DNA of 64,000 nucleotides, taken from assembly GCF_000372725.1 (NCBI RefSeq), contig NW_005201092.1, positions 775,833 to 839,832 on the forward strand. Direction: 5' to 3'. Below, one piece after another: positions 3,730-53,549 of the stretch; position 1 is the first letter of the stretch; the number at the start of each line of letters is the position of its first letter. This DNA is from Emiliania huxleyi CCMP1516. Taxonomy: Eukaryota. Under the pieces are notes generated by a model. The model made no database searches and was not told the origin of the DNA. It saw only the letters and a program-made list of their open reading frames with translations. The translations under genes were made by a program, and so were the position numbers.

Positions 3730-3731
3730 TA

Positions 3732-6826: not shown

Positions 6827-6926
6827 TCCACAAATATCATCGGCCTTAACGGCCGAGGTACACGGCTTTTACGTGAGGGTGCGACCTCTGCTGTGACGAA
6901 ACACCGTGACGTCGCGATGGTCTACT

Positions 6927-12321: not shown

Positions 12322-12525
12322 GACCAGCTGCTGCCCAAGAAGGTCGAAGCGGTGCGGCGCGGCGCGTCGTCGCTGTCTCGGGAGAGGAGAGAGTAACAGC
12401 CTCGCCCTCATCGCCGACGGCGCCTTCTTTACCTGGGGCGAGGGCGGCCACGGCTGCCTAGGCCACGGAGAGGACCTGTCGGACCAGCTGCTGCCCAAGA
12501 AGCAAGAAGGTCGAGGCGTGGGCCG
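12322..12525 (+). pseudogene. Frameshifted C-terminal fragment of the F-box-RCC1 family
   Basis: DQLLPKKVE..SLALIADGAFFTWGEGGHGCLGHGEDLSDQLLPKK matches the last blade of 35401-36828. Confidence 0.8.
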
Positions 12526-13270
12526 TGGGCGCCGCGCCGCCGAGGTGATGGTGAGGGGCGTGTCTGAGCTCTGAGAGACAGCCTATTTTGCGCTATTCAC
12601 GGGATTTGTGCCGTGTGTTATAACAACGCAAAAAGCGATCAACCGTATATGGATATGCGCCAAAAAAACTCAAAAGCCTCGTGACCACCTCCCGAATGTA
12701 TTGCCGCCGCGCCGGGCGCCTTGCCCGGCTGCGGCATCTCCCCCTCGCCCCCCCTTCCCGGGGGGTCTACTGTGCGGGCGGAGCTGACAAAGCCACCGCC
12801 CGTTCCCCTCCCCCCTCGCCCCGTCCCCCTAGCCGCTCGCAAGGGGGGGGGGGGCGGAACCCCGTAGCGGCCCCTCCACCCGTGGGGTGTCGCGCAGCCA
12901 CTCGCGGACGAGGGCCATTTCGTGCGTCCGGTTGGAAAACGCGGTCGCGACCTTGCAAGCCGACGCCTCGTCGTGCGGGCAAAAGACAGTCCAGCCCGTT
13001 TTGCCGAGAGCGGCTGGCACACACGAGCNNNNNNNNNNNNNNNNNNNNNNNNNNNNNNNNNNNNNNNNNNNNNNNNNNNNNNNNNNNNNNNNNNNNNNNN
13101 NNNNNNNNNNNNNNNNNNNNNNNNNNNNCTGAGTTGGGGACCCCCCCCCCCCCCCCTTCGAGACGCGACACCGAATTCGGCCGAGGCCTCGCCGGCGCAA
13201 GCCCGCGCGCCACGCGTCGCCGCGATCTCGCCGCGATCTCGCCGCGATCTCGCCGTCTGGGGGCCTGGGG

Positions 13271-33431: not shown

Positions 33432-35021
<1,590 letters not shown>

Positions 35022-35400
35022 GTGGCCTTTGGTACTGAGCGAACGATACAGTGCAGTGACCGACCGTAGTGCTGTCAGCAGTGCTGGTCAGCAGAGCGGC
35101 CAGGGCAGAGCGCCGACATTGATGACCTTCACAGTGCCTCCCAACCCCACGCCCATATGAAGTACAGTTTGTTGCAGCGAGAATCGGCGAGAGACTGCGA
35201 AGAGAGATAGGAAGAGGCGGATGCCCAAGGGTGGGCGACGGCTAGCGCACCACACCCCTCTCCTTAAAATCCCTGTGTGGTGGCGGCGTGTCGTCCTCCC
35301 ATCCCTCCCTTGGGTTGTCCATTTTCGTTCTTTCTTTCTTTCCATCGCGTGAGTTTGGACATCAGCCGGGGTCCTTGGTCCTCCCTCGATTTTTTTCGCG

Positions 35401-36828
35401 ATGTCCACCCCGTCGCGCCGCCGCTCGCGCCGCCTCGCCTCCGCCTCCTCCGCCGCCCCCTCGCCGAGCACGCCGCCTCCCGCCCGCCTCCTCGACCTCC
35501 CCACGGAGCTCCTCTTGCGCGCCCTCTCTCGCTGCGACCCCGCCGACATCGCCCGCGTCGCGGCCGTCTCGCTGCTCTTCCACGCCTCGCTTGCGCTGGA
35601 GGGCATCCGCTTGTGGGCGCGAGAGCGCGGCTTCGAGCTGCCGGCGCAGCCGGAGGGCGAGGGCTGCGCCGTGCGGTGGCTGTGCTTCGCGGCGCTGCTG
35701 CGCGAGTCCAACCCGCCGGCGAGGGCGGCGGCAGGCCGGCACCACAGCGTCTTCATCGACGGCGAGGGGCGGCTCTCGTCGTGCGGAAAGGTTGAGAGCT
35801 GGACGCCAGGACTGCTCGGGCACGGCGAGGGCGTGACGCGGCTCAACACGCCGACCCGCCTCCCTTCCCCGCTGGGTGGCGAGCGCGCTGTGAGCGTGTC
35901 GGCGTGTGAGCTGCACAACCTCGCCCTCGCCGCCGACGGCTCTCTCTGGAGCTGGGGCGCAGGAGACGTCGGCAAGCTGGGCCACGGCGACGAGCAGAAC
36001 CAGCTGCTACCCAAGAAGATCGAGGCCTTCGCTGATCAGCGCGCCATCGCTGTGTCGGCTGCAGGCTTCCACAGCCTCGCCCTCACCGCCGACGGAGAGG
36101 TCTGGAGCTGGGGCGGTGGAGCCTCAGGCCAGCTGGGCCACGGCGACGGGCAGCACCAGCTGCTGCCCAAGAAGATCGAGGCCTTTGCTGGGCAGCGCGT
36201 CGTCGCTGTGTCGGCTGGGGAGTACCACAACCTTGCCACCACCGCCGACGGCGCCCTCTGGAGCTGGGGTGCAGGCTACTCGGGCATGCTGGGCCACGGC
36301 GACCGGCAGCGCCAGCTGCTGCCCATGAAGGTCGAGGCGTTAGCTGGGCAGCGCGTCGTCGCCGTGTCGGCGGGATTCTTTCACAGCCTTGCCCTCACCG
36401 CCGACAGCGCCCTCTGGAGCTGGGGCGGGGGAGGCGAAGGCCAGCTGGGCCACGGCGACCGGCAGACCCACTGGCAGCCGAAGAAGATCGAGGCCTTTCC
36501 TGGGCAGCGCGTCGTCGCTGTGTCGGCTGGATGGGCTCACAACCTCGCCATCACCGCTGACGGTGCCGTGTGGAGCTGGGGCTATGGAGCCTGCGGCAAG
36601 CTGGGCCACGGCGACGAGCAGGACCAGCTGCTGCCCAAGAAGATCGAGGCTTTGGCTGGCCAGCACGTCGTCGCTGTGTCGGCTGGGGTCGACCACAGCC
36701 TCGCCATCACCGCCGACGGCGACGTCTTCACCTGGGGCGCGGGCGAGAGCGGCTGCCTAGGCCACGGAGAGGACCTGTCAAACCAGCTGCTGCCCAAGAA
36801 GATCGAGATGTGGGCGCCGGGGCAGTGA
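35401..36828 (+). CDS. F-box-like + 7-bladed RCC1-repeat protein, copy 1
   Basis: LLDLPTELLLRALS..DIARVAAVS, then 52-aa repeats HSLALTADG..WSWG.G..G.LGHGD. Confidence 0.9.
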   Translation: MSTPSRRRSRRLASASSAAPSPSTPPPARLLDLPTELLLRALSRCDPADIARVAAVSLLFHASLALEGIRLWARERGFELPAQPEGEGCAVRWLCFAALLRESNPPARAAAGRHHSVFIDGEGRLSSCGKVESWTPGLLGHGEGVTRLNTPTRLPSPLGGERAVSVSACELHNLALAADGSLWSWGAGDVGKLGHGDEQNQLLPKKIEAFADQRAIAVSAAGFHSLALTADGEVWSWGGGASGQLGHGDGQHQLLPKKIEAFAGQRVVAVSAGEYHNLATTADGALWSWGAGYSGMLGHGDRQRQLLPMKVEALAGQRVVAVSAGFFHSLALTADSALWSWGGGGEGQLGHGDRQTHWQPKKIEAFPGQRVVAVSAGWAHNLAITADGAVWSWGYGACGKLGHGDEQDQLLPKKIEALAGQHVVAVSAGVDHSLAITADGDVFTWGAGESGCLGHGEDLSNQLLPKKIEMWAPGQ

Positions 36829-37261
36829 GAAGCCGCGCAGATGGACAAGGAGGGGATGCTCAGGCTTCTCGCGGCGTCTCAACGAGGAGAGGATTCGGTT
36901 CGGCGTCACGGCGGGGCCGAGCCCGAGAGACACTGTCACTGAGTTCTGGGCATCGGCATGCGTTTTGCGGAGCTCGGCATTCATCACCCAGTGGCTCGGC
37001 CGTCAATCCGAGAGATTTTTAGCAATCCGTCAAAAAGTGAAGTCAGGACACGATTTGACCCCGGGGAGGTCACACTCTCTTGGGAGTGATGAGGTTGTAG
37101 GGGCGAGGTGGACCGGAGGCGGGCGATATGTGCTTTGTGAATTAATAAAAACACATATCGCCCCCGGGGAGGGATGCTCAACCGCTCCACGCCACGCCGC
37201 TTGCGGCGGTCCTACATGTATTCCCAGCTCCGCTGAGAGCCCGCGTTATTCCAAGACATTA

Positions 37262-38312
37262 CAAGTGCGCAACACTTAATGATTTTCGGCCGGCCGCAGG
37301 TCGGGCTGGACGCGGCTGTTTCGGCCGGCGGTCGGGGTCGGACACCAGCTTTGTCGGCGCGTCAGCGCCGAAGAAAATTTTTGGCGATTTTCTTGTACTC
37401 CCGTCACTTCCAGCTCACGCTCCCGGTTTTGTCAAATAGGATTCGAATCTCGAACTTCTATATTTCTCCTTGAGGTTCCCTCCCAGGCCCGCCGCCGCGC
37501 TCGCTGGACAGCGGCCGTGACTCACCTGCTTCGGGCGCGCTGCTCCTCGGGGATGGCGAGAAGCGGCAGAGATGATGCTCATAGATGAGCTAGCCCCAGA
37601 TGCCCCGTTTGCCCCACTGCGGCGCCGCGCTCGTGCCGGCGTGCGAGTGGGTACAATGCACCCCCTCGGCCGCTCGCGGCCCGGAACGCATCGGGAGATA
37701 TTCATTCGTATACGCCAAGACGTGCTCAGATGGCACGTAGTAGTGTGACTGAGCGCGTGGCCACTCTCCACCCTCGATTGCGGGCTGGTAGGTGCGCAGT
37801 TGCCGCACGCGGCCGGAGGCTCAAGCGGCGAGGGGTGACGATGGCGGCCGCAGTGGTGTAGGCGGACAGTAATGATGCCGCGCGGGCGGAGTGGCGGACA
37901 CGAGGACGCTGCCGTCGGACGAGGGGTTGCTATCATACGCAAGCACGAGCCGTCGGTGACGCGACGGCGTCATCACCGTTGGCCAGCATAGAAGCGCGAA
38001 AACCTGCCCGTGTGTCGGATGCGTCCCCAAACTTGTAGCGCTACATCTTTGGACACACACCGGCGGGCGCTTTCGAGGCGACCGGCAGCATTTTTTCTAG
38101 CCACATGGACCTTTTTGCGGCACGATAGCTGGGCTGCAACATACGTGTACCTACACTCGACTACAGCTACGACTGCAACGGCGCGCAGCGCCGAAGAAAA
38201 TTTTGGGGCTTCTCGAGCGGCGGCCGGTGTGGACGCCGTTGTTTCGCAGCTCGGTCGGGGGGTCCCTGCGTTTCCCTGCGGTCGGTCGAAAATCATTAAG
38301 TGTGCGCACTTG
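37262..38312. mobile_element. Non-autonomous TIR element (TA TSD), copy 2
   Basis: ~38 bp imperfect TIRs CAAGTGCGC..CCGCAGG / CCTGCGG..GCGCACTTG. TA at 37260-61 and 38313-14. Confidence 0.9.
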
Positions 38313-38313
38313 T

Positions 38314-39747
38314 ATGTCCACGCCGCCGCGCCGCCGCTCGCGCCGCCTCGCCCCCGCCCCCGCCTCCGCCTCCGCTGCGCCCTCGCCAAGCGCACCGCCG
38401 CCCACCTGCCTCCTCGACCTCCCCACGGAGCTCCTCCTGCGCGCCCTCTCTCGCTGCGACCCCGCCGACATCGCTCGCGTCGCGGCCGTCTCGGTCCTCT
38501 TCCACGCCTCGCTTGCGCTGGAGGGCATCCGCTTGCGCCTGCAAGAGGCCGGCTACGAGCCTCCGGCGCCGCCGGCGGGCGAGGGCTGCGCCGTGCGGTG
38601 GCTGTGCCTTTTGGCGTTGCTGCGCGAGTCCAACCCGCCGGCGAGGGCGGCCGCAGGCGAACGGCACAGCCTCTTCATCGACGCCGAGGGGCGGCTCTCG
38701 TCGTGCGGCTATGCGCCGGCCTGGGGCCCAGGCCTGCTCGGCCACGGCGAGGGCGTGACGCGGCTCAACACGCCGACCCGCCTCCCCTCTCCGCTGGGCG
38801 GCGAGTGCGCTGTGAGCGTGTCGGCTGGAGAGAGGCACAGCCTCGCCCTCACCGGCAGCGGAGCCGTCTGGAGCTGGGGCCGTGGAGGCCGAGGCAAGCT
38901 GGGCCACGGCGACGAGCAGAACCAGCTGCTACCCAAGAAGATCGAGGCCTTCGCTGATCAGCGCGTCGTCGCTGTCTCAGCTGGAGATAGCCACAGTCTC
39001 GCCATCACCGACGGCGGCAGTGTCTGGAGCTGGGGCTTTGGAGGCCAAGGCCGGCTGGGCCACGGCGACGAGCAGACCCAGCTGCTGCCCAAGAAGATCG
39101 AGGCCTTTGCTGGGCAGCGCGTCGTCACCGTGTCGGCTGGGGAGTACCACAACCTTGCCACCACCGCCGACGGCGCCCTCTGGAGCTGGGGTGCAGGCTA
39201 CTCGGGCATGCTGGGCCACGGCGACCGGCAGCGCCAGCTGCTGCCCATGAAGGTCGAGGCGTTAGCTGGGCAGCGCGTCGTCGCCGTGTCGGCGGGATTC
39301 TTTCACAGCCTTGCCCTCACCGCCGACGGCAGTGTCTGGAGCTGGGGCCAGGGAGGCGGCGGCCGGTTGGGCCACGGCGACCGGCAGGACCAGCTGCAGC
39401 CGAAGAAGGTCGAGGCCTTTCCTGGGCAGCGCGTCGTCGCTGTGTCGGCGGGGATCTCCCACAGCCTCGCCATCACCGCCGACGGAGAGGTCTGCAGCTG
39501 GGGCAGCGGACGCGACGGCAAGCTGGGCCACGGCGACGAGCAGGACCAGCTGCTGCCCAAGAAGGTCGAGGCCTTTGCTGGCCAGCACGTCGTCGCTGTG
39601 TCGGCTGGGCCATACCACAGCCTCGCCATCACCGCCGACGGCGACGTCTTCACCTGGGGCGCGGGCGAGAGCGGCTGCCTCGGCCACGGAGAGGACATGT
39701 CAAACCAGCTGCTGCCCAAGAAGATCGAGATGTGGGCGGGGCAGTGA
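38314..39747 (+). CDS. F-box-like + RCC1-repeat protein, copy 2
   Basis: Paralogue of 35401-36828 including the 3' flank. Starts MSTPPRRRSRR. Confidence 0.9.
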   Translation: MSTPPRRRSRRLAPAPASASAAPSPSAPPPTCLLDLPTELLLRALSRCDPADIARVAAVSVLFHASLALEGIRLRLQEAGYEPPAPPAGEGCAVRWLCLLALLRESNPPARAAAGERHSLFIDAEGRLSSCGYAPAWGPGLLGHGEGVTRLNTPTRLPSPLGGECAVSVSAGERHSLALTGSGAVWSWGRGGRGKLGHGDEQNQLLPKKIEAFADQRVVAVSAGDSHSLAITDGGSVWSWGFGGQGRLGHGDEQTQLLPKKIEAFAGQRVVTVSAGEYHNLATTADGALWSWGAGYSGMLGHGDRQRQLLPMKVEALAGQRVVAVSAGFFHSLALTADGSVWSWGQGGGGRLGHGDRQDQLQPKKVEAFPGQRVVAVSAGISHSLAITADGEVCSWGSGRDGKLGHGDEQDQLLPKKVEAFAGQHVVAVSAGPYHSLAITADGDVFTWGAGESGCLGHGEDMSNQLLPKKIEMWAGQ

Positions 39748-40077
39748 GAAGCCGCGCAGATGGACAGGACAAGGAGGGGATGCTCAGGCTTCTCGCGGCG
39801 TCTCAACGAGGAGAGGATTCCGTTCGGAACGCAGAGATCGGTGCGAGTATGACACAGTGTTGAGACAGGCACAGGGACGAAACACCCGTGAGACAGAGAC
39901 GTCTCACCTGTTCGTTCGCCCTGCTCAGGCTTCTCGCGGAGCTCTCACTTCGGTCCAGAGTGAAGAGAAAATAAAAAGAAACCGGGAAAAAAAGAGAATA
40001 CACACGTGTTCATCGCGGAGCTCGCGCGATTCATCACCCTCCGCTCGGCCCACTGGCACTGGCTCCGGTGGTAAGCC

Positions 40078-41497
40078 ATGATGAGCGCTGTGATGCGAGC
40101 CCTGATCCTGACGCCTAAGCCGCTCGCGCCGCAGTCGGCCCCAGCGCTGCACGACTCTGCTGCGGCCGCTCGTCCAAGTCAACCACGCGCAGAGTCGCCC
40201 ACGCTCGTCCGAGTCATCAATCAGGCGCGGAGGCCCGAGACGCCCTACCGTTCACCCCTCTCTTCACCGCCCATCGCCGTCTCACGCTCTCACCTCTCGT
40301 CAGGAGTACGAGGCTCTCCTTCCCTCCATCGCGCGGCACGGCGACGTCCCGGTCGGGCAGCTGCTGCACGCGATCGACACTCAGGCGACGCACTCGAGCC
40401 GGCTGGGCTCCTTCATGAGGCTGGTGGTGCGCTGCGACGCGCACAACACGCGGACGGTGCGGGAGTCGTGGGAGCGGCACGGCCGACCGGCCGGGCTGCG
40501 GCGGCTCCTCGAGGCAGAGGCGGCGGCGGGCGTGCAGCAGCCGGCCCTGCTCGAGGAAGCAGCCCGCCGCCGCCTGCGGGACACGTCCCGGACATGTCAG
40601 TGGCGTGTCCTGTAGGCCCGGCTCGAGGAGGGCTCTGCCGCCCTCGCGCTGCTGTGGAGCATGCGGAGCGCAGAGATAGATGCTGCGATGAGAGGATTGG
40701 TATTGTCATCATAGCAGAGTATTGGGTATTGTCATCTTAGCAGAGCCTAGATGCGGCGTGGCCGACCCCGTTGGTCCGAGACGCGAGCCAGCACTGGCGA
40801 CGCCACACCGCACGGCCAGAAACGTCCATGGCACGCCCATGTAGGATGAAGCGCTTCTGGGCCGAGCTGGCGAGCGGCCTCTCGGACGCGCGGGGCGGCT
40901 CGCCCGCCGCCCTCGGCAGCCTCGCCTACGATCGGGAGGTGAAGGGAGATATGGGGAGATATGGGGGAGATATGGGGGAGATACGGCCTACGAGCGGGAG
41001 GTGAAGGGAGCAGGAGGAGAGGTCATGGCGGGGTGCGGCGGCGCGTGCAGACACGCCTCTCGCCCTCTGCGCCATCCCTGCCCGCCCGCCCTCCCAGGTT
41101 GCGCCGTTCCACGGCTGGGTGCTGCGGGGCACCTTCCGGGCGGCGCTGGCCGCGCTGCCGTCTCGCGAGGCGATGCTCTCCGCCCTCTCGCTGCCGCCTC
41201 CGGGCGAGGAGGCTGCGGAGGCGGAGGTGCGACATGCTCCCGCCACCCCTGCCTTCCCCGCGGTTGCCGCCACAATCACCGCCGCCGCCCTCACCGCCAA
41301 CGCCCTCACCGCCGCCACCTCCTCCGAACCCGCACATGAACGTGTACCCCTCTACCCCTTTGCAGGGAGAGCCGCAAGCGAGGCGCGAGGCGGTGCGGGC
41401 CGAGCTGGAGGGTTGGGTGGCGGTGCTGCGCCGGGTGGCGGACGCGGTCGAGTCGCTGCTCGCCGAGCTCGGCCTTCGGGACGACCGGCAGCTGTGA
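40078..41497 (+). CDS. Glycolipid transfer protein (GLTP/HET-C2/ACD11 fold), about 5 introns
   Basis: Spliced GSAALALLWSMR|MKRFW..LAYDRE|VAPFHGWVLRGTFRAAL..PSREAML. Confidence 0.75.
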
Positions 41498-42064
41498 CTG
41501 GGCTCACAGGGAGAGCAGCGCGGCGGCTGGCTTGTGGCCGTCGCGAACCTGAGGCGGCGAGGCATCAGGGTGTTGTCACACAGTGGCACCGCCCCACGCA
41601 TGTGTTCAATGGACAATGTAGAGGGTTCGAGGGTGGCGGAGGAGCCTAAATTGCTATTAGCTCTTTCATTGTTTTTAGACAGACATAGGAGGGTTCCGTA
41701 TCAAGATCATGCCAAAGCCCAAACAAAAGGGGGCGGCCACGCATTCCACCTCAGGCCCGCGCGCCGGGCCCGCCCCGGGCGCCGCGAGACCTGCAGCAAC
41801 TTCTCGCAGCTGCGAGTCAGACCTGCTTATAAAATCGGACCGTGCTTTCTTCGGAGCGGGGTGCGGGGCATCCAAAACAACAGGAAGGGACCTGCACCTG
41901 GTAACATACGCGCAGCGCCAGGGAGTGTGACCCTAGGGGGACAAAGGTGTGTCCTGCACCTCAACCTCTCACTGGATACCCATCACTGAGCCGACGATGC
42001 TATGGCTAGCCCCAGGGTGGCGCCCACCCCCATACCCTCAGGCACTTGCCTGCGCCCTGGCCGC

Positions 42065-42270
42065 GCATGCCGCGCACGCGTGCGCACGCCCGCGCACACC
42101 GCGCACGCCCGCGCACGCCCGCGCACGCCCGCGCACGCCCGCGCACGTGCGCGCACGCCCGCGCGCACGCCCGCGCGCACGCCCGCGCGCACGCCGCACT
42201 ACGCGGCACTGCCCAGGTTCCCTCACGCTCAGATTCCCTCACGCTCAGATTCCCTCACGCTCAGATTCCG
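42065..42270. repeat. (CGCACGCCCG)n and (TCACGCTCAGATTCCC)3 tandem repeats
   Basis: Direct. Confidence 0.85.
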
Positions 42271-42421
42271 TGCAAGGGGGTGCCGAGGTATGCCGCAGGC
42301 CGGGATGGAGTGAGATCTTGCGGGGCAGGGCGTGTAGGGGGAGGCGCGGGACAGGGGCGTCCCTCGGGTGTCCCTCGGCTCTCGACTCCCCCGCACCAAC
42401 AGGCACCAACAGAGCACACTG

Positions 42422-42910
42422 ATGAGGGCCTTCCTCGTCCTCGCCGCTCTCGCGACCTCGTCCGCCCTCAAGGTTGCTGACCCGGCCACCAAGGTGGCCA
42501 CCAAGGTGCCCGCCGCCAAGCTGCCGTCCTCGGCCGCCAGCGCTCTCGCGCTCCGCGGCGGCGGTGTGGTGAGCGGCAGCGTGTGGCTCAAGTCCTTTTC
42601 CGCCTTCATGGGGATGTATGCAGTCGGCTTCGTGCTCGCGCCGGCCACGGTGATCGAGCAGAATTTCGACACGCCGTACGACAAGTACCACCTCTTCATC
42701 TCGCGGCTCTCGGGCATCGCGTTCCTCACGCTCATCTACACGTTCAGCACGATGGAGACGGCCGCGGCCGTGCCCATCGCCCTCACGATGGCTTGCCTCA
42801 CGGCGGTATTCGGGCCGATCTACGCCGAGCTGAAGCTCGAGACGAAGCCAGCGCACAAGATGGCCTTCCTCATGGCGCCCCTGATCGTCTCGGGCTTCCT
42901 GGCGCTCTAA
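42422..42910 (+). CDS. Small 4-TM membrane protein with signal peptide and LRGG leader motif
   Basis: MRAFLVLAALATSSA signal, Ala/Lys-rich leader ending ALALRGG, then four hydrophobic helices. Confidence 0.75.
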   Translation: MRAFLVLAALATSSALKVADPATKVATKVPAAKLPSSAASALALRGGGVVSGSVWLKSFSAFMGMYAVGFVLAPATVIEQNFDTPYDKYHLFISRLSGIAFLTLIYTFSTMETAAAVPIALTMACLTAVFGPIYAELKLETKPAHKMAFLMAPLIVSGFLAL

Positions 42911-43282
42911 GAGTGGGTCCGAGGCGCCTCCGTGCTCCGATGCGGGACGTGCTCACACGGCGTGAGGAGCATATGTGCGGCATGGCCGCATGCGGTGGGA
43001 GGCGGTGCGCGTGCGCGCGCGCGTGCTCAGTCCCGATCGTGCTTCTTGCGCACAAGGCAAGCGAGAGATGTGTGTATACACATAATCACATTCACACTCG
43101 TCACTTTCTCTCGTTTTTTTATTGCAAAATACGAGAGAGCCCGCGGAGGGGGGGTGGGGGGGCGCGCCGCACGCCGGACAGTCTCGGAGCTGGTGTACCT
43201 GTATTCCGAATGAATACGCCATAAATCGCACGAGACACATACCAGTGCGGCGGCGGCTACGGTGGATCCATGTGATGATTGT

Positions 43283-44035
43283 GGCATGTTTTGCGAGTAT
43301 ATGGGACAAAAGCGTCGAAAATGTCCCAAAAAGCGTGTCTCGAGTTTGTGGCAGCCCCACAGCCGGCGCGCGCTGCCAGGAAGCACCGCTCGCGTGTCGG
43401 CCGCACTCCCTGGCACCCGGTGAGTGCGGCCGACCGACCAGACCGAATAGGCTCGACGCCGCGCTCGCTGTGGGGCTGCCACAAACTCGCCGCCGAGCGT
43501 GCCACCGACGGCGTCCCGGCGGCGGTGATGGAGTGTGAGACCTGAGGCTGCGGAGGTGACGCCTGAGGTACCGGCCCGTGCACAGCGACTCAGCCGGCGA
43601 CCGCCACGGGCTCAGACGAGACTTGTCGACTCGTTCCGGCTCAGCTTCACCGTGGTCATCGGGCGTCTGTCGACGTCAGGACCACCCATACAGCTCGCGG
43701 GTTTGAGGTCGCAAGAGCCAAGATGGTGGCGTTTGGACATCCCAACCATCACACAAGACAGCCTGTAGGTGATGGCGGGACGGCGCAGTGTTTGTGGCAC
43801 TCAGCAGTAGGCACCCGCGGCACGGCCCCGCTGTCGGCTCTCACGGGCTGCGGAACCGGCCCCAGAGGGAGCCGGTCCGGGCGAGTGTGGCAGCTCCTGC
43901 GCTAGTATGGGCACCCTCTATCATAGCACTACTGATCCTGGTCATTAGAGCTGCCAGGGATAGCGTCAGGAGCCGGTAGGAGTCAAAACCTCTCATATTT
44001 GAGACATCGTGTCCCATATACTCGCAAAACATGCC
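43283..44035. mobile_element. 753 bp non-autonomous DNA transposon
   Basis: Perfect 26 bp TIR GGCATGTTTTGCGAGTATATGGGACA (43283-308 / 44010-35). TSD TTGT on both sides. Confidence 0.9.
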
Positions 44036-44326
44036 TTGTATCAGTCGCGGTGTCGCGCGCAAGCGTCTTCAGACTTCACGCGGCACGACCCGAGTCGAGC
44101 CCTAGCTGACCCGCAAGGCGCAGGGGGCAGGCCCCGTTGGCGAGCGGCCGCTGCGGCGCTGTCGGGCTGTCGCCTCGTGAGCCTAGCCTTTACCTGTGCT
44201 CGTAAGTTCTCGCATGCACACCTGACATCGTGTAGTGCCTCCTCGGCGCGCGGCTGCTGGCTCTCCGCGCCGGGCCTTCCCCCGCTCTAGACGCAGCCCG
44301 CCGCTGGAGCCGCGACCCGCTTCGCC

Positions 44327-45152
44327 TCACTGGCCGTAGCCCTTGCCGCGCAGCTCGTCGATGTAGCGCGCGATCTTGGAGTCGCCCGCGCGCGGCGACA
44401 CGCCCGCCTGCAGCAGCGTGCGCACCACCACCTTCCCGTCGTTGGCGCGCGGCCAGGGCGTGCCTCGGCTGGTGGAGTACCTGAGCAGAGAAGAGCCGTG
44501 AGTACGGACAAAGCAAGCTGCGGGACACGGGCTGGCCTCGGCGGGGTGCCGTTCGCGGTGGAGGGCGCGGTCGATCTCGACGACAGAGCGGCCCTCCTCG
44601 GCGAGCTCGAGGACGCGCCTGCAAGGGCGAGGACGAAGAGGCTGGGTCGACGGCCATGCCCGCGCCGCCCCTCCTCCAGACCGCCGGTGCGGCGCACCCG
44701 ACCAGATTTGCGTCCTGCCGGCTCCGGCTGCCGCCTGGCGGAGGGCCGAGAGAGGGATCAGGAGAAGGGTCGGGGGGAGGGGGGGGTTGAGACAGGCGCC
44801 CCGCAGGGTCCGGCTGCCGCCTGGCGTCGAGGAGGGCGCCGAGCCCTTGCTACGTGAAGATGTTCCGCTCCGAGGCCGACGTGGAGCGTGCCGTATGTGG
44901 GCCGGGCTGACATGGGGCGCGCTGGCGTCAACAAAGCCCAGGGCCGCGGCTCGGACCACAGGGCGAGCCTTCTTTCGGAGGCTCATTCTCCCTTGCCGTC
45001 CGCTGCCGAACCTGGAGACGTGCCGTGTGCGGACGAGCGCGGCGTCGGGGGAGGCGGGAGAGGCCCACCGCACGCGCCGCGCGCCGGGGAGAGGCCGGGG
45101 TGGGACGGCGGCTGGTCGGGCGTGTTTGTGCGCACGGCGAGCGGGGTGGCGC

Positions 45153-45195
<43 letters not shown>

Positions 45196-45945
45196 AGGCA
45201 TGTAGCCGGAGCCGTCGCCGAGGGAGGAGGGCGAGAAGAGGCGGCAGACACGCAGCTCGGAGCAAGGTGTCGAGACAGCCGCCGAAGGCGCCGACACCGC
45301 CGTCGCCGCCGCCGACACCGCCGTCGCCGCTTGTGCCGCCGCCACCCGCGGCGAGGGCGAAGGGGTGAAGAGGCAGTGGGAGGAGGCGGCGGAGGAGGCG
45401 GGGGAGGGGCCGCTGCCGCCGCTCGCCCGGTGAGGCGGTAGGCCGAGCCGGTCGTGCCTGAGGTGAGGTGCTGTGGTAGGGTGAGGTGCTGTGGTAGGGT
45501 GAGGAGGGTTGTGTGAGGTGGATTGTGTGAGTGAGGTGCTGTAGAGTGAGGTGGGTGAGGAGGGCTGGGTGAGGAGGGTTGGGTGAGGTCGGGTACCCTC
45601 GCTGGGAAGGGGGGCCGGGCAGCCCTCGCATCTGCACTAGGGGTGGCAGGAGCGCGGGGTGCACATTCCAAGTGCAAGGCCCCGGTGCGCGCGGGGTGCG
45701 GAAGTGTGAGGGGGTGCGGTGTGGGGGTGGGGTGTGTGAGTGGGGTGTGTGAGCGTGTGTGTGGAGGAAGTGTGGCGCGGGAGGGAGAGCGGGTGGAGTG
45801 GGAGAAGTGTGATGTCATGTCGCCTCCGCTTGAGCCGGAGCCGGCGCGAGGCCCCCTTGTTGCACGAGCGGTCGAAGCAGGCGGCGCCCCCGTTGCAGTG
45901 TGCCGCGCAGCGCTCAAAGGCGAGAGCAGACTGCGAGCCTGACGG
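44327..45945 (-). CDS. Downstream exons, either the C-terminal extension of RecQ or a separate gene
   Basis: Coding-like blocks (FERCAAHCNGGAACFDRSCNKG; RVLELAEEG; DSKIARYIDELRGKGYGQ*) separated by repeat-filled introns. Confidence 0.4.
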
Positions 45946-46081
45946 GGGGCTGGCCGCGGACTGTGTCGCGGCTGCACCTGGGCCGCATCGCGGCTGTCTC
46001 TTGGCCGCATCTCGGCTGTCTCTTGGCCGCATCTCGGCTGTCTCTTGGCCGCATCTCGGCTGTCTCTTGGCCGCATCTCGG

Positions 46082-46404
46082 CTAGATCTCGCCGTCGAAG
46101 AAGGCTAGGCGGTGGAGCTCACAGATCGGCTCGCACGCGGCGCACTCGCTCCCGCCCCCCACCTCCTCCCGCCCCTCCTCCCACCCCTCCTCCTCCCTCT
46201 CCTCCTCCTCCTCCTCCTCCTCCTCCTCCTCCTCCTCGCTCGCACTGCCCCCGGCCGCCGCCGCGCCGGCAAATGCCCTGCCGCTCACGGCGGCGGCCAT
46301 GGCGGCGGCCTCTGCGTCGGCGTCGAGCGACCGCAGGCAGAGGTGGAACTGGGCGCCCGCTTGGGTGTGCGCAGGCTGCGCCGGCACGATGGGAGGCGGC
46401 AACA

Positions 46405-46451
<47 letters not shown>

Positions 46452-48220
46452 GGCGGCGGCGGCGGCGGCTGCTGCGGCTGCTGCGGCTGCGGCGGCGGTG
46501 CGAAGGGCGCCTCGGCGGCCCTTCGCCCGACCCCCACGCGGGAGGAGTAGCCGCCGTGCGGGCACGGCGTGCTGACTTCGGAGAGCACCTGCCGCACGAC
46601 GGTGCGCGGGAGATACGGGGAGATGTGGGGGAGATGTGGGGGAGATGTGGGGGAGATGTGGGGGAGATGTGGGGGAGCGCCTGCCGCACGACGAGTGCGC
46701 GGAGCAGCCTCGAGAGCTGAGGCCGGCCGAGGCCCTTCGCGACGCCGTGCTCGGCGAGGTGGACCTAGCGGAGGTTGCGGGAGGTTGCGGGAGGTTGCGG
46801 GAGGTTGCGGGAGATTGCTCGGCGAGGTGTGGTCGACCAGCCCCGACGTGACCACCTCCTTGGCGCGCGAGCCGTAGAGCAGCGCCTGCGGCTCGAGTCA
46901 TGAGTCGCTGCTGGTGTGAAGTGAGTGACACCTCGAGCCTCAGCTGGGGAGATGTGGGGAGATGTGGGGAGATGTGGGGAGATGTGGGGGAGATGTGGGG
47001 AGATGTGGGGAGATGTGGGGAGATGTGGGGAGATGTGGGGAGGATGGGGGGGGGGGGGGGGGGGAGACGTGGGGAGACGTGGGGAGACGTGGGGAGATGT
47101 GGGGAGATGTGGGGAGATGTGGGGAGATGTGGGGAGATGTGGGGAGATGCGGGGAGATGCGGGGAGATGCGGGGAGACAGTGCAGCCGCGCCTCGAGCCT
47201 CGGTAGCGTCAGCGCGCCATTCAGCCGGCCGGCCACGCAGAGAGCGGCGCGCGCCGCCACGCCGAGCTCCGCGCTCCTCGGCGGCGCGTCGGCGGCGCAG
47301 TTGTCGCAGCAGCGGCCGGGTGGCGGAGGAGGGGCGGGTGGCTCCTTCCCGAGGCGTTAGGGAGCAGCCGCTCAGACTGAGACCCCGAGAGAGTAGCCGA
47401 GAGAGGCCGAGAGTGGCCGAGAGTAGCCGAGAGTAGTCTCACCACCCCCACCCTCCTCTCATAGCCGGGCGGCGCCTGGCCGAGGTGGCGCAGCAGCCGG
47501 GCGCGGCGGCAGCCAACGTCGTCCTCGCACATCGCGACCACCTTGGGGAGGTATGGGGAGATCTGGGGAGATCTGGGGAGATCGTCGTCCACATCGCGGC
47601 AACCTCCATCAGCTCGCCGAGCCGCTCCTATTAATTACTACATAGTTGAGTAGTTGATTGATTAATTAACAGCATCTGCTCTGTGGAGAGCTCCTCGAGC
47701 GTCGCGGGCGGCGCGCCCCGCCGTATCATCGACTCGACCTAACGGAGACGGCACCGCGCCGCGCGCGTCAGGGACGTGTCGTGGTCGTGTCCCGTCGGCC
47801 CGCGTCGTACGACTTGACCCGCTGCTTGTCCGAGTACGAGTAGAGGAGGACGCACTCCGCGTCCTCCCCATCCCGGCCGGCCCGCCCCCACTCCTGCGCC
47901 AGCGCCGTCAGCGAGGAGGGGATCGTGTAGTGGAAGATCTGCCGCACGCCCCCGTGGTGCACGCCTAGAAGCTTCCTAGAAGGTTCCTAGAAGGGGGGAG
48001 GGTGGTGCTGCACGCCTCCGTGGTGCACGCCCATCCCAAAGGCGCACGTGGCGACGATGACCTCCACCCTACCCTGCAGCCAGTCGCGGTGCAGCGCCTC
48101 CTTGACCTCGCCCTCCACCTGCGCGTGGTAAAACGCGGCCGCCACCCGCCGCTCCACCAGCCCGTCGCACACGCGCTCCGCCTCAGCGCGAGAGTGACAG
48201 TACACGATCGCGCAGCGGCA

Positions 48221-48267
<47 letters not shown>

Positions 48268-49291
48268 TGCTTCCGCTGCCGCCGCCGCTGCTTCCGCCGC
48301 CGCCTCCGCCGCCTGCCCCGAGTGCGGCGGCGATCCGGTCGAGGGAGGAGGCGAGCGAGGTCTTGCGCCTTCGGAAGGAAGTCATCACCACTCAGCCCCT
48401 TCACGATCCGGTCCAAGGGGGGGGAGGCGAGGGAAGTCTAGCTGCGCCAGACGGCGTAGCGGAGGTGGGGCCGGTCCATGCTCCCCTCCAGCACGCGCAC
48501 CCCCGACGCGTCGAGCCCTAGGCTCTCTAGCAGGAGAGGCCGGCGCGCGGGCGGCAGCGTCGCGGTCAGGAGTAGCCACGGGACGCCTAGGAGAAGGTTC
48601 CTAGAAGGTTCCTAGAAGGTTCCAGTGTCGCGGTCAGGAGTAGCCACGGGACGCCGGGCAGATCGGCGCGGAGAGAGCCGAGGCGGGCGTATTCGGGTCG
48701 GAAGTCGGACCCCCACGACACCACGCAGTGCGCCTCGTCCACCACCACCCGCTGCAGCAGCCCGCGAGACGCGAGCGAGCGCAGCACGCCGCCGAGCGAC
48801 AGCGACTGCAGCAGCCGCTCGGGAGTGACAAAGAGGAGCTTCGCGCCCTCCGAGGGAGAGGGCGCGCCGCCCCGCCGCCCCGCCGCAGCCACAGCGGCCG
48901 CCGCCGCCGCCTCCTCCGCGCCCTGCGTGCTCTCTGGCGGCGGCAGCGGCCACGCCCGCAGCTCCTGCAAGACCGCCGTCTGCTCCGCGGCGGGCTGCGA
49001 GGAGCAGAGGTGGAGGGCGCGGACGCGGAGCGAGTCGAGCGCGTCGCGCTGGTCGCGCATCAGCGCGAGCAGCGGCACCACCACCACAGTGATCCCCGGG
49101 GTGGCGAGCGAGGCGAGCTGGAACGTGCGGCTCTTGCCCCCGCCGGTCGGCATGAGGAGGAGGACGTCGCGGCCGCTCAGCGAGCACTCGATCGCCTGGC
49201 GCTGGAGGGGACGGAGAGGCGCACCGTGGAACCAGCGCTCGTTCGCGGCGTCGAGGGCGTCGGGGTCGGCGGGGAGGGGTCGAGTCGCCAT
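46082..49291 (-). CDS. recQ: RecQ-family DNA helicase, multi-exon
   Basis: MPTGGGKS, VVVDEAHCVVSWGSDFRPEY, LTAT, IVYCHSR, ATCAFGMG, QEWGRAGRDG, Zn-binding CRR..CCDNC and an RQC-like region. Confidence 0.92.
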
Positions 49292-49396
49292 TGTGGTCGA
49301 TCGCTGTGTCGCGCTGGTCGCTCAAGCGGCTTAACCTGAAAAAAGAATTTGCGTTGCGTACCCGTTGCAGAGGCCGGTCAAATTCTTTTCCTCGCG

Positions 49397-50821
49397 ATGT
49401 CCACCCCGCCGCGCCGCCGCTCGCGCCGCCTCGCCCCCGCCTCCGCCTCCGCTGCGCCCTCGCCGAGCACGCCGCCGCCCGCCCGCCTCCTCGACCTCCC
49501 CACGGAGCTCCTCTTGCGCGCCCTCTCTCGCTGCCACAGCCCCGCCGACATCGCTCGCGTCGCGGCCGTCTCGCTGCTCTTCCACGCCTCGCTTGCGCTG
49601 GAAGGCATCCGCTTGTGGGCGCAAGAGCGCGGCTTCGAGCTGCCGGCGCAGCCGGAGGGCGAGGACTGCGCCGTGCGGTGGCTGTGCTATTCGGCGCTGC
49701 TGCGCGAGTCCAACCCGCCGGCGAGGGTTGCGGCAGGCTCCACCCACAGCGTTTTCATCGACGGCGAGGGGCGGCTCTCGTCGTGCGGCTATGCGCCGTT
49801 CTACAGCCCATCGCTCCTTGGCCACGGCGAGGGCGTGGTGCGGCTCAACACGCCGACCCGCCTCCCCTCTCCGCTGGGTGTCGAGCGCGCCGTGAGTGTG
49901 TCGGCGGGAGAGAACCACAGCCTCGCCCTCACCGCCGGCGGCGCTGTCTGGAGCTGGGGCCCTGGAGCCTATGGCCAGCTGGGCCACGGCGACCAGCAGC
50001 ACCAGTGGCAGCCGAAGAAGATCGAGGCCTTGGCTGACCAGCGCGTCGTCGCTGTGTCGGCTGCAGCCGTGCACAACCTCGCCCTCGCCGCCGACGGCTC
50101 TCTCTGGAGCTGGGGCGGTGGAGCCTACGGCAAGCTGGGCCACGGCGACGGGCAGGACCAGCTGCTGCCGAAGAAGATCGAGGCCTTGGCTGGCCAGCGC
50201 GTCGTCGCCGTGTCGGCTGGATACGTCCACAGCCTCGCCCTCACCGCCGACGGCGCCCTCTGGAGCTGGGGCTTGGGACGCGACGGCCGGCTGGGCCACG
50301 GCGACGAGCAGAGGCAGCAGCTGCCGAAGAAGGTCGAGGCCTTTGCTGGCCAGCGCGTCGTCGCTATGTCGGCGGGATTCGCGCACAGCCTCGCCATCAC
50401 CGCCGACGGCAGCGTCTGGAGCTGGGGCAGTGGAAGCTATGGCAAGCTGGGCCACGGCGACGAGCAGAACCAGCTGCTGCCCAAGAAGGTCGAGGCCTTT
50501 GCTGGCCAGCGTGTCGTCGCTGTGTCGGTGGGAGGCTACTACAGCCTCGCCCTCACCGCCGACGGCGCTGTCTGGAGCTGGGGCGATGGAGACTACGGCA
50601 AGTTGGGCCACGGCGACCAGCAGCGCCAGCTGCTGCCGAAGAAGGTCGAGGCCTTTGCTGGCCAGCGCGTCGTCGCTGTGTCAGCAGGGCAGTCCCACAG
50701 CATCGCCATCACCGCCGACGGCGCCGTCTCGAGCTGGGGATTGGGAGGCTTTGGCTTTTTGGGCCACGGCGACGAGCAGAGCCAGCTGCTACCCAAGAAG
50801 ATCGAGGGGCGGGCGCAGTAA
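49397..50821 (+). CDS. F-box-like + RCC1-repeat protein, copy 3
   Basis: Same N-terminus and repeat framework as copies 1 and 2, but lacks their specialised last blade. Confidence 0.9.
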   Translation: MSTPPRRRSRRLAPASASAAPSPSTPPPARLLDLPTELLLRALSRCHSPADIARVAAVSLLFHASLALEGIRLWAQERGFELPAQPEGEDCAVRWLCYSALLRESNPPARVAAGSTHSVFIDGEGRLSSCGYAPFYSPSLLGHGEGVVRLNTPTRLPSPLGVERAVSVSAGENHSLALTAGGAVWSWGPGAYGQLGHGDQQHQWQPKKIEALADQRVVAVSAAAVHNLALAADGSLWSWGGGAYGKLGHGDGQDQLLPKKIEALAGQRVVAVSAGYVHSLALTADGALWSWGLGRDGRLGHGDEQRQQLPKKVEAFAGQRVVAMSAGFAHSLAITADGSVWSWGSGSYGKLGHGDEQNQLLPKKVEAFAGQRVVAVSVGGYYSLALTADGAVWSWGDGDYGKLGHGDQQRQLLPKKVEAFAGQRVVAVSAGQSHSIAITADGAVSSWGLGGFGFLGHGDEQSQLLPKKIEGRAQ

Positions 50822-51197
50822 CGTACACGCTTTATTACAAGAGGGGGGCGGCGCCCCGAAGGGTCCCCCGATAGAGCGTATATATCGTGGGTCTTGGTTC
50901 GCGTTTGTTTTAAACCTGCCGAACTTCCGCGGTCGCAGGATTACCTTGCTCTCTTCTCCACACACTCTTCTCCGCCCGCGCAAGGGCCCCGGCACGGCCG
51001 GGCCCCCCCGCCCCCCCCCCCCCCAAAGCCGTATGCGTATCTAGCAAACCGGCTGGCCCAGCCTGCAGCTGGAGCTGCACCCACGAGCGAGAACTGCCGA
51101 GCATAAGCGCCACGTGCCGAGCCAAGGGCCACGTCCCAGACGCCGAAACGGACGGACGACGTGGCGGCGGCTGCCTGCATCGCACACAGCGGCGGAT

Positions 51198-51422
51198 CTA
51201 GAAGCCGCACCTGCACGTGACGTGGGCGGGGTGAGAGGGATCGCTCTGGTCCACGCGCAACCTCCTCCAGTCTGCAGCGCACGGTTCCCCGCCGCCGCAC
51301 CGGCACTCGCACGCTTTTACTTTGTCAGGATGAGAGACGAGGCAGTCGGCCTTGCACTCGTCAAAGGTCGCGCCGCTCGCCGCCGCCAGCAGCCCAACCA
51401 AAAGCACGATCAAGCTCCTCAT
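51198..51422 (-). CDS. Small secreted Cys-rich peptide
   Basis: Signal MRSLIVLLVGLLAAASG followed by C-x3-C..C-x-C-x-C..C. Confidence 0.45.
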   Translation of the reverse strand: MRSLIVLLVGLLAAASGATFDECKADCLVSHPDKVKACECRCGGGEPCAADWRRLRVDQSDPSHPAHVTCRCGF

Positions 51423-52138
51423 CTCGACTGCAACTGGGCAAGGCGGGCAGTGGCGCGGATGAGCGACGTGCTCTGTTGTCGCACAGGCGGGATTGAAGCG
51501 GCAGGGCGGGCTAGGCTTCTGCTGGGCAGGCGGCCCAAGATCTGGCCCAGCAGCACAGAGTAAATTAATACAGATAGCGGAGGCCGGCGGCGCAGGCGCG
51601 AGACCACCGATGAGGGCACATCACAGCGAGTGCGTGGTGGTGTGGGGGTGCGGCAGTCGCGTGCATGCTTGGAGGGAGCGGCGACTCTGGCAAGAGCGGC
51701 TTTCACCACTCAAGAGGCCAGAGTCCGGTGGCTTGCGTCGGCGGGAAGAGAAGAGAGAGATGTGAGCCGGAGACCAGAGGTGGACGAGGTGTGGTTGGGA
51801 GGCCGCGTCAGCTCGCTGGTCCTGGGCTCTGGATCTGACAGGCCGGCAGCGGCGCTGGGTCGGCTCACACAGATTGCGGGCGGAAAGGGCGTGCGCGCAC
51901 CTTCCCAAGGGTCGGCGTGCACTCAAAACGCGGCGCGCACAAACTTGAACGCAAAAACGGTAGCGTGATTGCGATGTCACGCTTACCTTCTTTCTTTTTC
52001 ATCCACGGATCACGGACCCGAGTCATGGGTTGATCAAGGGATTGCGGGTCCAAAATCTGTGCTTTTGCGTGAAATCTGCAGCGAGGTCTCGAAGAGACTT
52101 CAGGGCCGGGGCGTTACAGGACGGACGATCTGCGGACG

Positions 52139-53549
52139 ATGCGGGCCGCCCTCGAGCAGGCCGTGCAGATCAAGAGCGCGGCGCTCGCGCGGCAGCGTTG
52201 CCGCTTCGATGCGTCGCCCGACTACTACCAGCGCACGCTCTGGACGGGGGATGAGGCGGAAGGCCTCCGCGCGCTGCCGCTGGAGGAGCGGCTCGCTCGC
52301 GCCGCCAAACTCAAGGAGGAGGGGACAGCACTCCTGAGGGTGGGCGACCACTCGGCAGCGGTCGAACGGTACGCGCTCGCGCTCGGGGCCTTTTGCTACC
52401 TCCGCTGCACCGACCCCGCCTGGCGGCGGCACGGCCTCCGCGACGATGCGATCGAGGAGGTGGACGAGAGGCCGGCTGGCGGTGAGCCGCGCCCTCATCC
52501 CTCGGTCCACACCGCTTCTCTCGTCTCAGCGATAATCCTCTCCACCGCACACCGCTTCCCCTCTTGCGCCTCCTCTGCAGGCTCGCCGCTACGCGAGAGG
52601 GCCGACTCCCTCCTCCTCGACAGCTACAAGAATCTCTCGCTCTGCTACCTCGGCATGGCGGCCGCTGCGCGCAGCGGTGACACTGGGGGCGATGCCAGCA
52701 GCTGTTGCCGACATTGCATATCGGCGTGCGACGCGGCGCTAGAGTTGCAGCCCGGGTGCGCAAAGATGCTCTACCGCCGGGCGAGGGCGCGGGTGGGGGC
52801 GAGCGCGGGCGAGGCGGCGGCCGACGAGGCGATCCGTGACCTGCGAGAGGCGACTCGCAAGGCGCCGGAGGACCGCGCGGTGCGAGCTCTGCTGGTGCGT
52901 CGCGGCAGAGCGGATGGGGCCCTAGAGCTGGTGACATGAGCCGAGCCGTCTCGCTGTTTGCACCAAAGGCGCGTCTGCTGGGAGAGCGGGCTGCGAGGCG
53001 CGAGGCGGAGGAGCTGGCGTTCGGAGGCATGTTTTCGCGCGGGCGGCTCGCCTCCTCCAGCAGCTGTGGCGGCGACGGTGGCGGCGGCAAGGACGACAAT
53101 GACGAGCCGGCGCAACACGCGCCCTGTCGGCCAGTCCCCTGTCCGAGACCGCCGACTCAGCCGATGCCGCTGTGTGGATAGGCAGCGGCGCGATGCAGGA
53201 CGGCGGAGAGGGAGGAGGCGAGGTTCAAAGCGTGCGAAGACGAGGTGCGGCGGGCGGAGGAGGCTGTGCAGATGCTCCGCGAACGGGGGCAGGCGCGGGA
53301 TGCGGAGGAGCTGCAGGCGGACTTGCCCTTTTGCCAACGCTCGTCCGCTTTCGCCCTTCATCCGTTGCTTGCTGTCGTTATATACAGGCGATTGTCGACG
53401 CACAGCGAGCTAAGCTTGAGCGGTGCCGGCGGGCGGTGGAGCAGCGGCGGCGATCCATGCCGCTCGTGCTCTCCCGGCTGAGGGGGTGGTGCTTGTCGCC
53501 CATCGTGCTACTGCTCGCGGTCGGGTGGCTGACACGCTGGCTGACATGA
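52139..53549 (+). CDS. TPR protein (FKBP/Cyp40-type co-chaperone TPR) with C-terminal TM, multi-exon
   Basis: AAKLKEEGTALL..AVERY, YKNLSLCYL, ACDAALELQP..KMLYRRARA, PEDRAVR. Confidence 0.75.

What the first reader, a model, noticed from the sequence alone, without database searches (positions are those of the whole stretch)
35401..50821. F-box-RCC1 family with invariant framework and hypervariable propeller face
Seen: three intronless paralogues plus a relic at 12322, each an F-box-like motif followed by seven 156-nt repeats. Framework codons are nearly fixed even at synonymous sites (TGGAGCTGGGGC, CTGGGCCACGGCGAC). The positions AG[xx]H (EL, GF, EY, FF, WA, VD, ER, DS, IS, PY, EN, AV, YV, FA, QS) and WG[x]G[xx]G[x]LG differ in almost every blade. 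Established: these loops form the ligand-binding face in RCC1-like propellers (UVR8, BLIP-II), and F-boxes recruit substrates to SCF ligases. Inference: a diversifying repertoire of substrate receptors, possibly an intracellular immune system that degrades viral or parasite proteins.
Basis: partly seen in the sequence, partly recalled or inferred. Interest (0 to 1): 0.82.

Follow-up and report, generated by a model that had tools for sequence, protein, structure and literature searches.

The report
Algal hypervariable F-box propeller repertoire
A bloom-forming alga (likely Emiliania/Gephyrocapsa huxleyi) carries well over a hundred F-box-like genes whose ring-shaped binding domains keep one frame but differ at four rapidly evolving positions in every blade, likely an antibody-like set of receptors that would tag foreign proteins for destruction.

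Summary
The observation largely holds. Three intronless genes and a relic encode an F-box-like motif plus a seven-bladed RCC1 propeller. They belong to a large dispersed family: at least 178 clusters at 90% identity, with named members from E. huxleyi.

On 29 independent metagenome genes, the variable sites give omega about 12 against 0.2 for the framework (M8 vs M8a 2dlnL 781). Neutral simulations with recombination give 0.8-1.4. Selected sites are repeat positions 9, 10, 26 and 29, the face UVR8 uses for binding, and are 27.5% aromatic. Blades are pooled by short-tract recombination; 146 of 148 carry distinct four-residue faces. Family RNA contigs exist.

Corrections: framework synonymous rates are not unusually low, position 28 is only weakly selected, positions 9-10 are saturated, and genes A and B share an identical 198-nt tract.

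Skp1 binding, targets and any virus link are untested. It evolves like fungal HNWD WD40 sensors but on an F-box adaptor. I found no description in the papers searched. The scan earlier noted variable RCC1 blades in two viruses, without F-boxes.

The parts
35401..36828 (+). Gene A: basic N-terminal patch, F-box-like motif, helical linker, 7-bladed RCC1 propeller (475 aa)
   Evidence: exact pieces spanning its variable codons in RNA run X12 and DNA runs X3, X5
35488..35619 (+). F-box-like motif of gene A (aa 30-73)
   Evidence: PF12937 E 5.8e-5, PF00646 E 7e-4, both below cut-off
35713..36825 (+). RCC1 propeller of gene A, variable positions 9, 10, 26, 29 in each blade
36208..36405 (+). 198-nt tract identical to 39130-39327 of gene B (blade 4 to mid blade 5): recent gene conversion or duplication relic
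   Evidence: median longest shared tract among all pairs is 44 nt
37262..38312 (.). 1051-nt element with terminal inverted repeats and flanking TA...TA (Tc1/mariner-like MITE by recalled features); the right TA includes the A of gene B's ATG. Gene B lacks the family's T-rich leader
   Evidence: second copy at 3729-4781 (97.7%)
38314..39747 (+). Gene B: F-box-like motif plus 7-bladed RCC1 propeller (477 aa); 89% identical in DNA to gene A, the closest non-duplicate pair
39130..39327 (+). Copy of the 198-nt tract shared with gene A
49397..50821 (+). Gene C: F-box-like motif plus 7-bladed RCC1 propeller (474 aa); model pLDDT 84, TM 0.93 to UVR8 (target-normalised)
12322..12545 (+). Relic of a family member: end of blade 6 and blade 7 with frame breaks
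   Evidence: 82% identity to the 3' ends of genes A and B; translation

Best explanation
These genes belong to a large, dispersed, recombining family whose RCC1 propellers are diversified at four positions per blade on the predicted binding face, and they likely act as interchangeable substrate receptors of SCF ubiquitin ligases that would mark fast-evolving foreign proteins (virus, parasite or selfish element) for degradation. Shown: architecture, family size, excess amino-acid change at positions 9, 10, 26 and 29, short-range recombination, broken copies, and presence in RNA libraries. Inferred: short conversion tracts between blades and genes homogenise the frame and reshuffle variants, while selection keeps new residues at the 28 or so face positions; the conserved F-box docks on Skp1; a basic N-terminal patch may send the proteins to the nucleus; the targets are foreign.
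For: Selection. Sites were fixed beforehand from the window and tested on 29 other genes. Omega is 12.6-13.5 at 32 variable codons against 0.19-0.21 in the framework and 0.22-0.23 in the F-box and linker; 2dlnL against omega=1 is 883-917. M8 vs M8a 2dlnL is 781 with omega_s 11.9; 24 of the 27 sites at posterior >0.95 are positions 9, 10, 26 or 29, two lie in the blade-1 loop and one at position 39. A star tree gives 14.4. Nine neutral simulations, six with recombination, gave 0.79-1.41. With a free synonymous rate, the four positions give dN 13.9 vs dS 1.9 (LRT 107).

Composition and position. F+W+Y make up 27.5% of 574 residues against 4.9% from base composition; Pro is 0.3% against 11%. UVR8's GWRH residues (W233/R234, W285/R286, W337/R338) align to positions 9-10 and W94 to position 26; these lie at the UVR8 dimer interface (PMC4501546 passages).

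Pooling. Framework distance between blades is 0.137 within a gene, 0.126 for the same blade in different genes and 0.141 for different blades in different genes; it is 0.65 at the variable codons, and 146 of 148 four-residue faces are distinct. Linkage decays to background by about 60 nt (permutation p=0.001).

Family. 178 clusters match the N-terminal region; 73 of 80 metagenome loci are distinct; neighbours are unrelated genes; roughly a third of full-span loci are broken. Distant relatives pass Pfam F-box cut-offs (P0193, P0204), and one member is named 'E3 ubiquitin ligase' by its source. A basic patch precedes the F-box in 95 of 116 proteins.
Against: No call shows a target, a virus link or induction by infection. 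Most members score below Pfam's F-box cut-offs. Positions 9 and 10 are saturated: at 9 the dS and dN rates are equal (4.5 vs 4.6), and at 10 dS is unbounded, so a locally raised mutation or exchange rate is not excluded there. The synonymous rate at the variable codons is itself raised 1.9-3 fold. Gene A's variable codons are held unchanged in two other DNA runs, so diversity at this locus is not turning over between those isolates (they may be the same or close strains). The codon models are my own implementation on a fixed, nearly star-like tree with naive empirical Bayes site calls. Metagenome assemblies of repeats can contain chimeras and false frameshifts.
Confidence: 0.55

Rival explanations
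1. The same diversifying SCF receptors act in internal conflict or self/non-self recognition rather than infection: they collectively degrade non-self toxins, drive elements, transposon proteins or mating-type products, as pollen S-locus F-box sets do (recalled).
For: The same selection and shuffling pattern in fungal HNWD WD40 domains serves allorecognition (PMC13449251 and PMC10197012 passages). Transposon-like elements flank genes A and B. The basic patch suggests nuclear targets.
Against: Members are dispersed among unrelated genes rather than linked at one locus. No partner toxin gene recurs beside them in the 42 neighbouring ORFs scanned.
Confidence: 0.18
2. The propellers are diversifying binders, but the N-terminal motif no longer binds Skp1; they work by sequestering targets or by recruiting another partner.
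For: Window genes mostly fall below Pfam F-box cut-offs; 15 of 78 members miss PF12937 even at E<=0.01.
Against: The L-x-x-L-P start and following helix pattern are invariant or nearly so in 29 aligned members, omega is 0.22-0.23, distant relatives pass F-box cut-offs, and F-box plus RCC1 is a working SCF architecture in FBXO24 (PMC10932545 passages).
Confidence: 0.14
3. A targeted mutator or local hypermutation, like a diversity-generating retroelement, writes the variable codons, and selection only filters them.
For: The synonymous rate is raised at the variable codons and cannot be separated from dN at positions 9 and 10. Many variable codons have the form NNT (position 26) or NNC (position 10).
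Against: Simulated 3x and 8x hotspots gave omega 1.5-4.6 with dN/dS 0.6-1.15 at the hot sites, against 2.4-7 observed; stronger hotspots were not simulated. At position 26 the third base stays T in 89 of 143 codons, against the genome's C preference, while bases 1-2 are scrambled (dS 0.11, dN 12.9). Adenine is not the retained base at codon position 1. Gene A's codons are unchanged in other runs. No reverse transcriptase was among the 12 window ORFs scanned.
Confidence: 0.07
4. Ordinary expansion by duplication with concerted evolution; the loop codons are simply unconstrained and the family has no recognition role.
For: Many broken copies and a relic; nearby transposon-like repeats.
Against: Neutral simulations never exceeded omega 1.41. 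Aromatic enrichment and proline exclusion, and strong purifying selection on the frame, argue for function.
Confidence: 0.06

Closest known systems
Podospora HNWD/NWD NLRs with high-internal-conservation WD40 repeats (HET-D, HET-E, HET-R)
   Same: Near-identical propeller repeats under concerted evolution, four hypervariable positions per repeat under diversifying selection, and repeat exchange within and between genes (PMC13449251, PMC10197012 passages).
   Different: WD40 rather than RCC1 repeats; NACHT and cell-death effector domains rather than an F-box; a handful of genes with variable repeat number, whereas here seven blades are the norm in a family of over a hundred.
Unstable F-box families of Caenorhabditis (and plants)
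   Same: Lineage-specific birth-death expansion, conserved F-box, positively selected substrate domain, proposed recognition of foreign proteins (PMC8665587 passages).
   Different: Other substrate domains (FTH/FBA2 and FBA, recalled); no periodic four-site hypervariability on a homogenised repeat was described in the passages read.
FBXO24 (mammals); yeast Saf1 and Pof9 (recalled, not found)
   Same: F-box plus RCC1 architecture; FBXO24 co-precipitates SKP1, CUL1 and RBX1 (PMC10932545 passages). It appears at rank 10 in the Atlas search.
   Different: Single conserved genes with endogenous substrates; no expansion or hypervariable face.
Ectocarpus ROCO-LRR and NB-ARC-TPR candidate receptors
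   Same: Algal repeat-protein families with birth-death evolution, diversifying selection and repeat shuffling, proposed as immune receptors (PMC3341825 abstract).
   Different: One exon per repeat and exon shuffling, whereas this family is intronless; other repeats and signalling domains.
UVR8 and the HERC1/HERC2 RCC1-like domains
   Same: Closest solved folds, 36-39% identity; the same face is used for contacts.
   Different: No conserved GWRHT triad here; UVR8 has no F-box; no HECT domain in these proteins.

Membership tests
RCC1-like seven-bladed propeller | Seven ~52-residue RCC1 repeats folding into a propeller | tested here: met
   PF00415 x7 and PF25390 above cut-off; model pLDDT about 90 over the propeller; TM 0.93 to UVR8
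F-box proteins (SCF substrate receptors) | N-terminal F-box motif by profile | tested here: met
   63 of 78 members hit PF12937 and 39 of 78 hit PF00646 at E<=0.01; gene B and relatives P0193, P0204 pass a curated cut-off; genes A and C are below cut-off
F-box proteins (SCF substrate receptors) | F-box three-helix fold matching solved F-boxes | tested here: inconclusive
   Short helices at 31-33, 36-43 and 49-58 in the full model; the isolated 81-residue model (pLDDT 73) gave no clear match
F-box proteins (SCF substrate receptors) | Binds Skp1 and promotes substrate ubiquitylation | not testable with these tools
High-internal-conservation hypervariable repeat sensors (HNWD type) | Repeats highly similar within and between genes, with a few positions under diversifying selection | tested here: met
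   Framework DNA distance 0.13-0.14 against 0.65 at four codons; omega about 12
High-internal-conservation hypervariable repeat sensors (HNWD type) | Repeat exchange within and between genes | tested here: met
   Linkage decay by 60 nt, p=0.001; 198-nt A/B tract and within-gene identical runs of 60 and 77 nt at offset 156
NLR / HNWD family proper | NACHT or NB-ARC ATPase plus effector domain | tested here: not met
   No such domain in 78 members scanned; the 474-477 residues are accounted for by F-box, linker and propeller
UVR8 photoreceptors | Conserved GWRHT motifs in three blades | tested here: not met
   These positions are the hypervariable ones
Diversity-generating retroelements | Adenine-specific variation from an invariant template with a linked reverse transcriptase | tested here: inconclusive
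   Base pattern does not fit adenine-only change and no RT among the 12 ORFs scanned, but no whole genome was held

The most novel reading that the evidence does not exclude
E. huxleyi has a germline-encoded, combinatorial intracellular immune repertoire. Some hundreds of F-box-RCC1 genes draw blades from one recombining pool of over a thousand, each blade presenting four paratope-like residues, and they destroy incoming giant-virus (EhV) or other parasite proteins, so that repertoire differences between strains set virus host range.
Probability: 0.3. Interest if true: 0.9.

Novelty: new variant of a known kind. Interest (0 to 1): 0.7.

Why it matters
The molecular basis of strain-specific virus resistance in this bloom-forming alga is poorly known (own knowledge), and this family is a concrete, testable candidate. 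It joins two separately known strategies in one protein of a single-celled alga: fungal-type shuffled hypervariable propellers and nematode/plant-type fast-evolving F-box adaptors. It is also a natural library of binders on a fixed RCC1 scaffold, with the randomisable positions and residue preferences already mapped.

Tried and rejected
No whole genome was held, so copy number per genome is unknown. A capture-recapture figure of about 200 from two contig series (40 and 39 loci, 7 shared) is a rough population-level guide only: the series may be one data set assembled twice, and the peptide patterns bias the sample.

Viral origin: no relative in viral contigs by protein or by DNA motif. Fold searches with the isolated N-terminus gave no clear match, F-box or other; for a short helical model this is no evidence either way. 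No Rfam match in 33000-53000. No complex prediction was sent, as no Skp1 sequence was on hand.

Special synonymous 'anchors' in the frame: not supported. Retrocopy origin: the genes are intronless and dispersed, with homology starting about 15 nt before the ATG, but I saw no poly(A) tails in the 3' flanks printed, so it stays unproven. Blade-to-blade distance correlations were near zero, but a star-like tree would give that anyway, so I relied on linkage decay. The separate-rate fit for positions 31/37/39 did not converge (negative LRT) and is not significant. Read depths are summed over paralogue contigs and were not used for expression level or copy number; no exact RNA piece of gene B was among the rows shown, which proves nothing.

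Literature: plus for UVR8, found no description of this family. In PMC4438323 the 'RCC1' hits are strain numbers. PMC11798906 (passages, one supplementary file) and PMC10991182 (passages) do not mention it. The E. huxleyi genome paper and most subscription papers and supplements were not seen.
Full report
What is there. The window is 60-73% GC eukaryotic DNA. Three uninterrupted ORFs, A 35401-36828, B 38314-39747 and C 49397-50821, encode 474-477 residues. Each has a weak F-box hit and seven RCC1 repeats. Blades 2-6 are exact 52-codon units and blade 1 has a longer loop. A relic of the last blade and a half lies at 12322-12545. A model of gene C has pLDDT about 90 over the propeller and matches UVR8 best (TM 0.93 over the target, 36% identity). 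The named relatives are all from Emiliania huxleyi CCMP1516, and the top Atlas cluster is mostly haptophyte. I infer that the window is from E./Gephyrocapsa huxleyi or a close relative.

The family. The best 120 full-length hits are 63-77% identical to gene B, and nearly all are single-member clusters at 90%. The N-terminal region alone finds 178 clusters among the 7998 candidates scored. A metagenome scan kept 80 of 114 confirmed loci, of which 73 are distinct at 97%. Their neighbours are unrelated genes such as SNF2, TauD, a glycosyltransferase, an ion channel and THOC3 (42 of 87 candidate ORFs scanned), so the family is dispersed. Shared sequence begins at a T-rich leader about 15 nt before the ATG and fades within about 40-250 nt of the last blade. 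Of 42 de-duplicated loci with both ends matched, 29 read through and 13 did not. That call is rough: L052 was scored broken but is intact, several 'intact' spans are partial, and assembly errors are possible. No relative was found in viral contigs. A profile search found 75 representatives, including diverged F-box-RCC1 proteins that pass Pfam's F-box cut-offs.

Selection. To avoid circularity I fixed the variable positions from the window and tested them on other genes. Thirty of the 80 loci had a complete closed ORF; one duplicate was dropped, leaving 29, and the window genes were left out. Tree-free distances gave pN 0.635 at the variable codons against pS 0.233 in the framework and 0.152 in the N-terminus. 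My own GY94-type model on a fixed tree gave omega 12.6 (F3x4) or 13.5 (F61) at 32 variable codons, 0.2 in the framework and 0.22-0.23 in the F-box and linker. With no sites named in advance, M8 beat M8a by 2dlnL 781. Of 27 sites called, 24 are repeat positions 9, 10, 26 or 29; position 28 was not called. A star tree gave 14.4. Nine neutral simulations, six with recombination, gave 0.79-1.41; four with 3x or 8x mutation hotspots gave 1.5-4.6 with dN about equal to dS at the hot sites. With free synonymous rates, the four positions together give dN 13.9 and dS 1.9. The signal is clear at position 26 (12.9 vs 0.11) and position 29 (13.5 vs 3.6). It is not separable at position 9 (4.6 vs 4.5) or at position 10, where dS is unbounded through saturation. 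Residues at the four positions are 27.5% aromatic and almost never proline, resembling antibody combining sites (own knowledge).

Where the sites lie. In the alignment to UVR8, its GWRH tryptophan-arginine pairs fall on positions 9-10 and W94 on position 26. These residues lie at UVR8's dimer interface (PMC4501546, passages). I mapped by alignment, not on model coordinates, and position 29 is placed on the same face by its loop position and recalled UVR8 structure.

How diversity is shuffled. Among 148 blades from 32 genes, framework distance is about the same within a gene (0.137), between genes at the same blade (0.126) and between genes at different blades (0.141). The four variable codons differ at 0.65, and 146 of 148 four-residue combinations are distinct. 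Linkage between framework sites falls from r2 0.148 at 1-10 nt to about 0.05 beyond 60 nt (permutation p=0.001). Genes A and B share a 198-nt identical tract against a median longest tract of 44 nt, and two loci have identical runs one repeat apart. The simplest reading is short-tract gene conversion over one pool of blades, with selection preserving new residues at the face.

Expression and strains. Contigs from 4 of 4 RNA runs laid cover the family genes. In the culture transcriptome X12 the element between A and B has no cover, and two pieces match gene A exactly across variable codons (35875-35998 and 36507-36615). Contigs give no strand or level, and DNA in the library is not excluded. 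In DNA runs X3 and X5, exact or one-mismatch pieces span gene A's variable codons. Those runs may include the source strain, but the result argues against constant rewriting of these codons.

The F-box. It is conserved and under purifying selection. It hits PF12937 in 63 of 78 members and PF00646 in 39 of 78 at E<=0.01, mostly below curated cut-offs. A structure comparison of the isolated region was uninformative. Skp1 binding is untested. A basic patch precedes it in 95 of 116 proteins with enough upstream sequence; a nuclear signal is my inference.

Comparison. The evolutionary pattern matches fungal HNWD WD40 sensors: 80-100% identical repeats, four hypervariable positions and repeat exchange (PMC13449251 and PMC10197012, passages). 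The family lacks their ATPase and effector domains, so it is not an NLR. The birth-death F-box pattern and the foreign-protein hypothesis are known from Caenorhabditis (PMC8665587, passages). F-box plus RCC1 is a working SCF architecture in FBXO24 (PMC10932545, passages). Brown algae have analogous shuffled LRR and TPR families (PMC3341825, abstract and outline). HERC5's RCC1-like domain protein is listed as antiviral (PMC6002735, search listing only). Ten searches found no account of this family, but the library lacks most subscription papers, and the genome paper and most supplements were not seen. Earlier scan notes report variable RCC1 blades in a giant virus and a cyanophage, without F-boxes; two searches found nothing on this DNA.

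Verdict. The feature is real, and the diversifying selection is well supported (about 0.9). The SCF-receptor role is likely, and foreign targets are plausible but unshown (0.55 overall). It is a new variant of a known kind; interest 0.7.

Noticed in passing
window 29041-32826 (+): 1261-aa intronless ORF with a weak ADP-ribosyltransferase hit (PF01129 E 0.0014, below cut-off), ankyrin repeats and C-terminal LRR-like repeats; looks like another candidate defence or conflict protein.
   Followed up: no
window 7648-8295 (+): A separate F-box gene (PF12937 above cut-off) with an unrelated C-terminal region.
   Followed up: no
window 3729-4781 and 37262-38312: Two 97.7% identical copies of a ~1.05-kb element with terminal inverted repeats; the first lacks the end of its right repeat. 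The second sits directly on gene B's start codon.
   Followed up: partly
window 19895-20171, 24610-24688, 27124-27269, 35211-35360: A short palindromic high-copy repeat family; one copy lies just upstream of gene A and has very high summed contig depth in DNA and RNA runs.
   Followed up: no
window 6560-6827: 268-nt imperfect palindrome between divergent genes.
   Followed up: no
L045:1-2727: Two family members in opposite orientation on one short contig.
   Followed up: no
L007, L008, L051, L059 blade-1 loop: A subfamily carries an acidic insertion (runs of E and D) in the blade-1 loop; a few others have insertions inside variable loops.
   Followed up: no
repeat position 26 in blades 2-6 of 29 loci: The third base is T in 89 of 143 codons and C in only 7, the opposite of the C preference in neighbouring genes; CpG avoidance is not general in the repeat, so this is unexplained beyond inheritance.
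   Followed up: partly
window 48587-49291 (-): A RecQ-like DEAD helicase exon runs divergently from gene C with only about 105 nt between the start codons.
   Followed up: no
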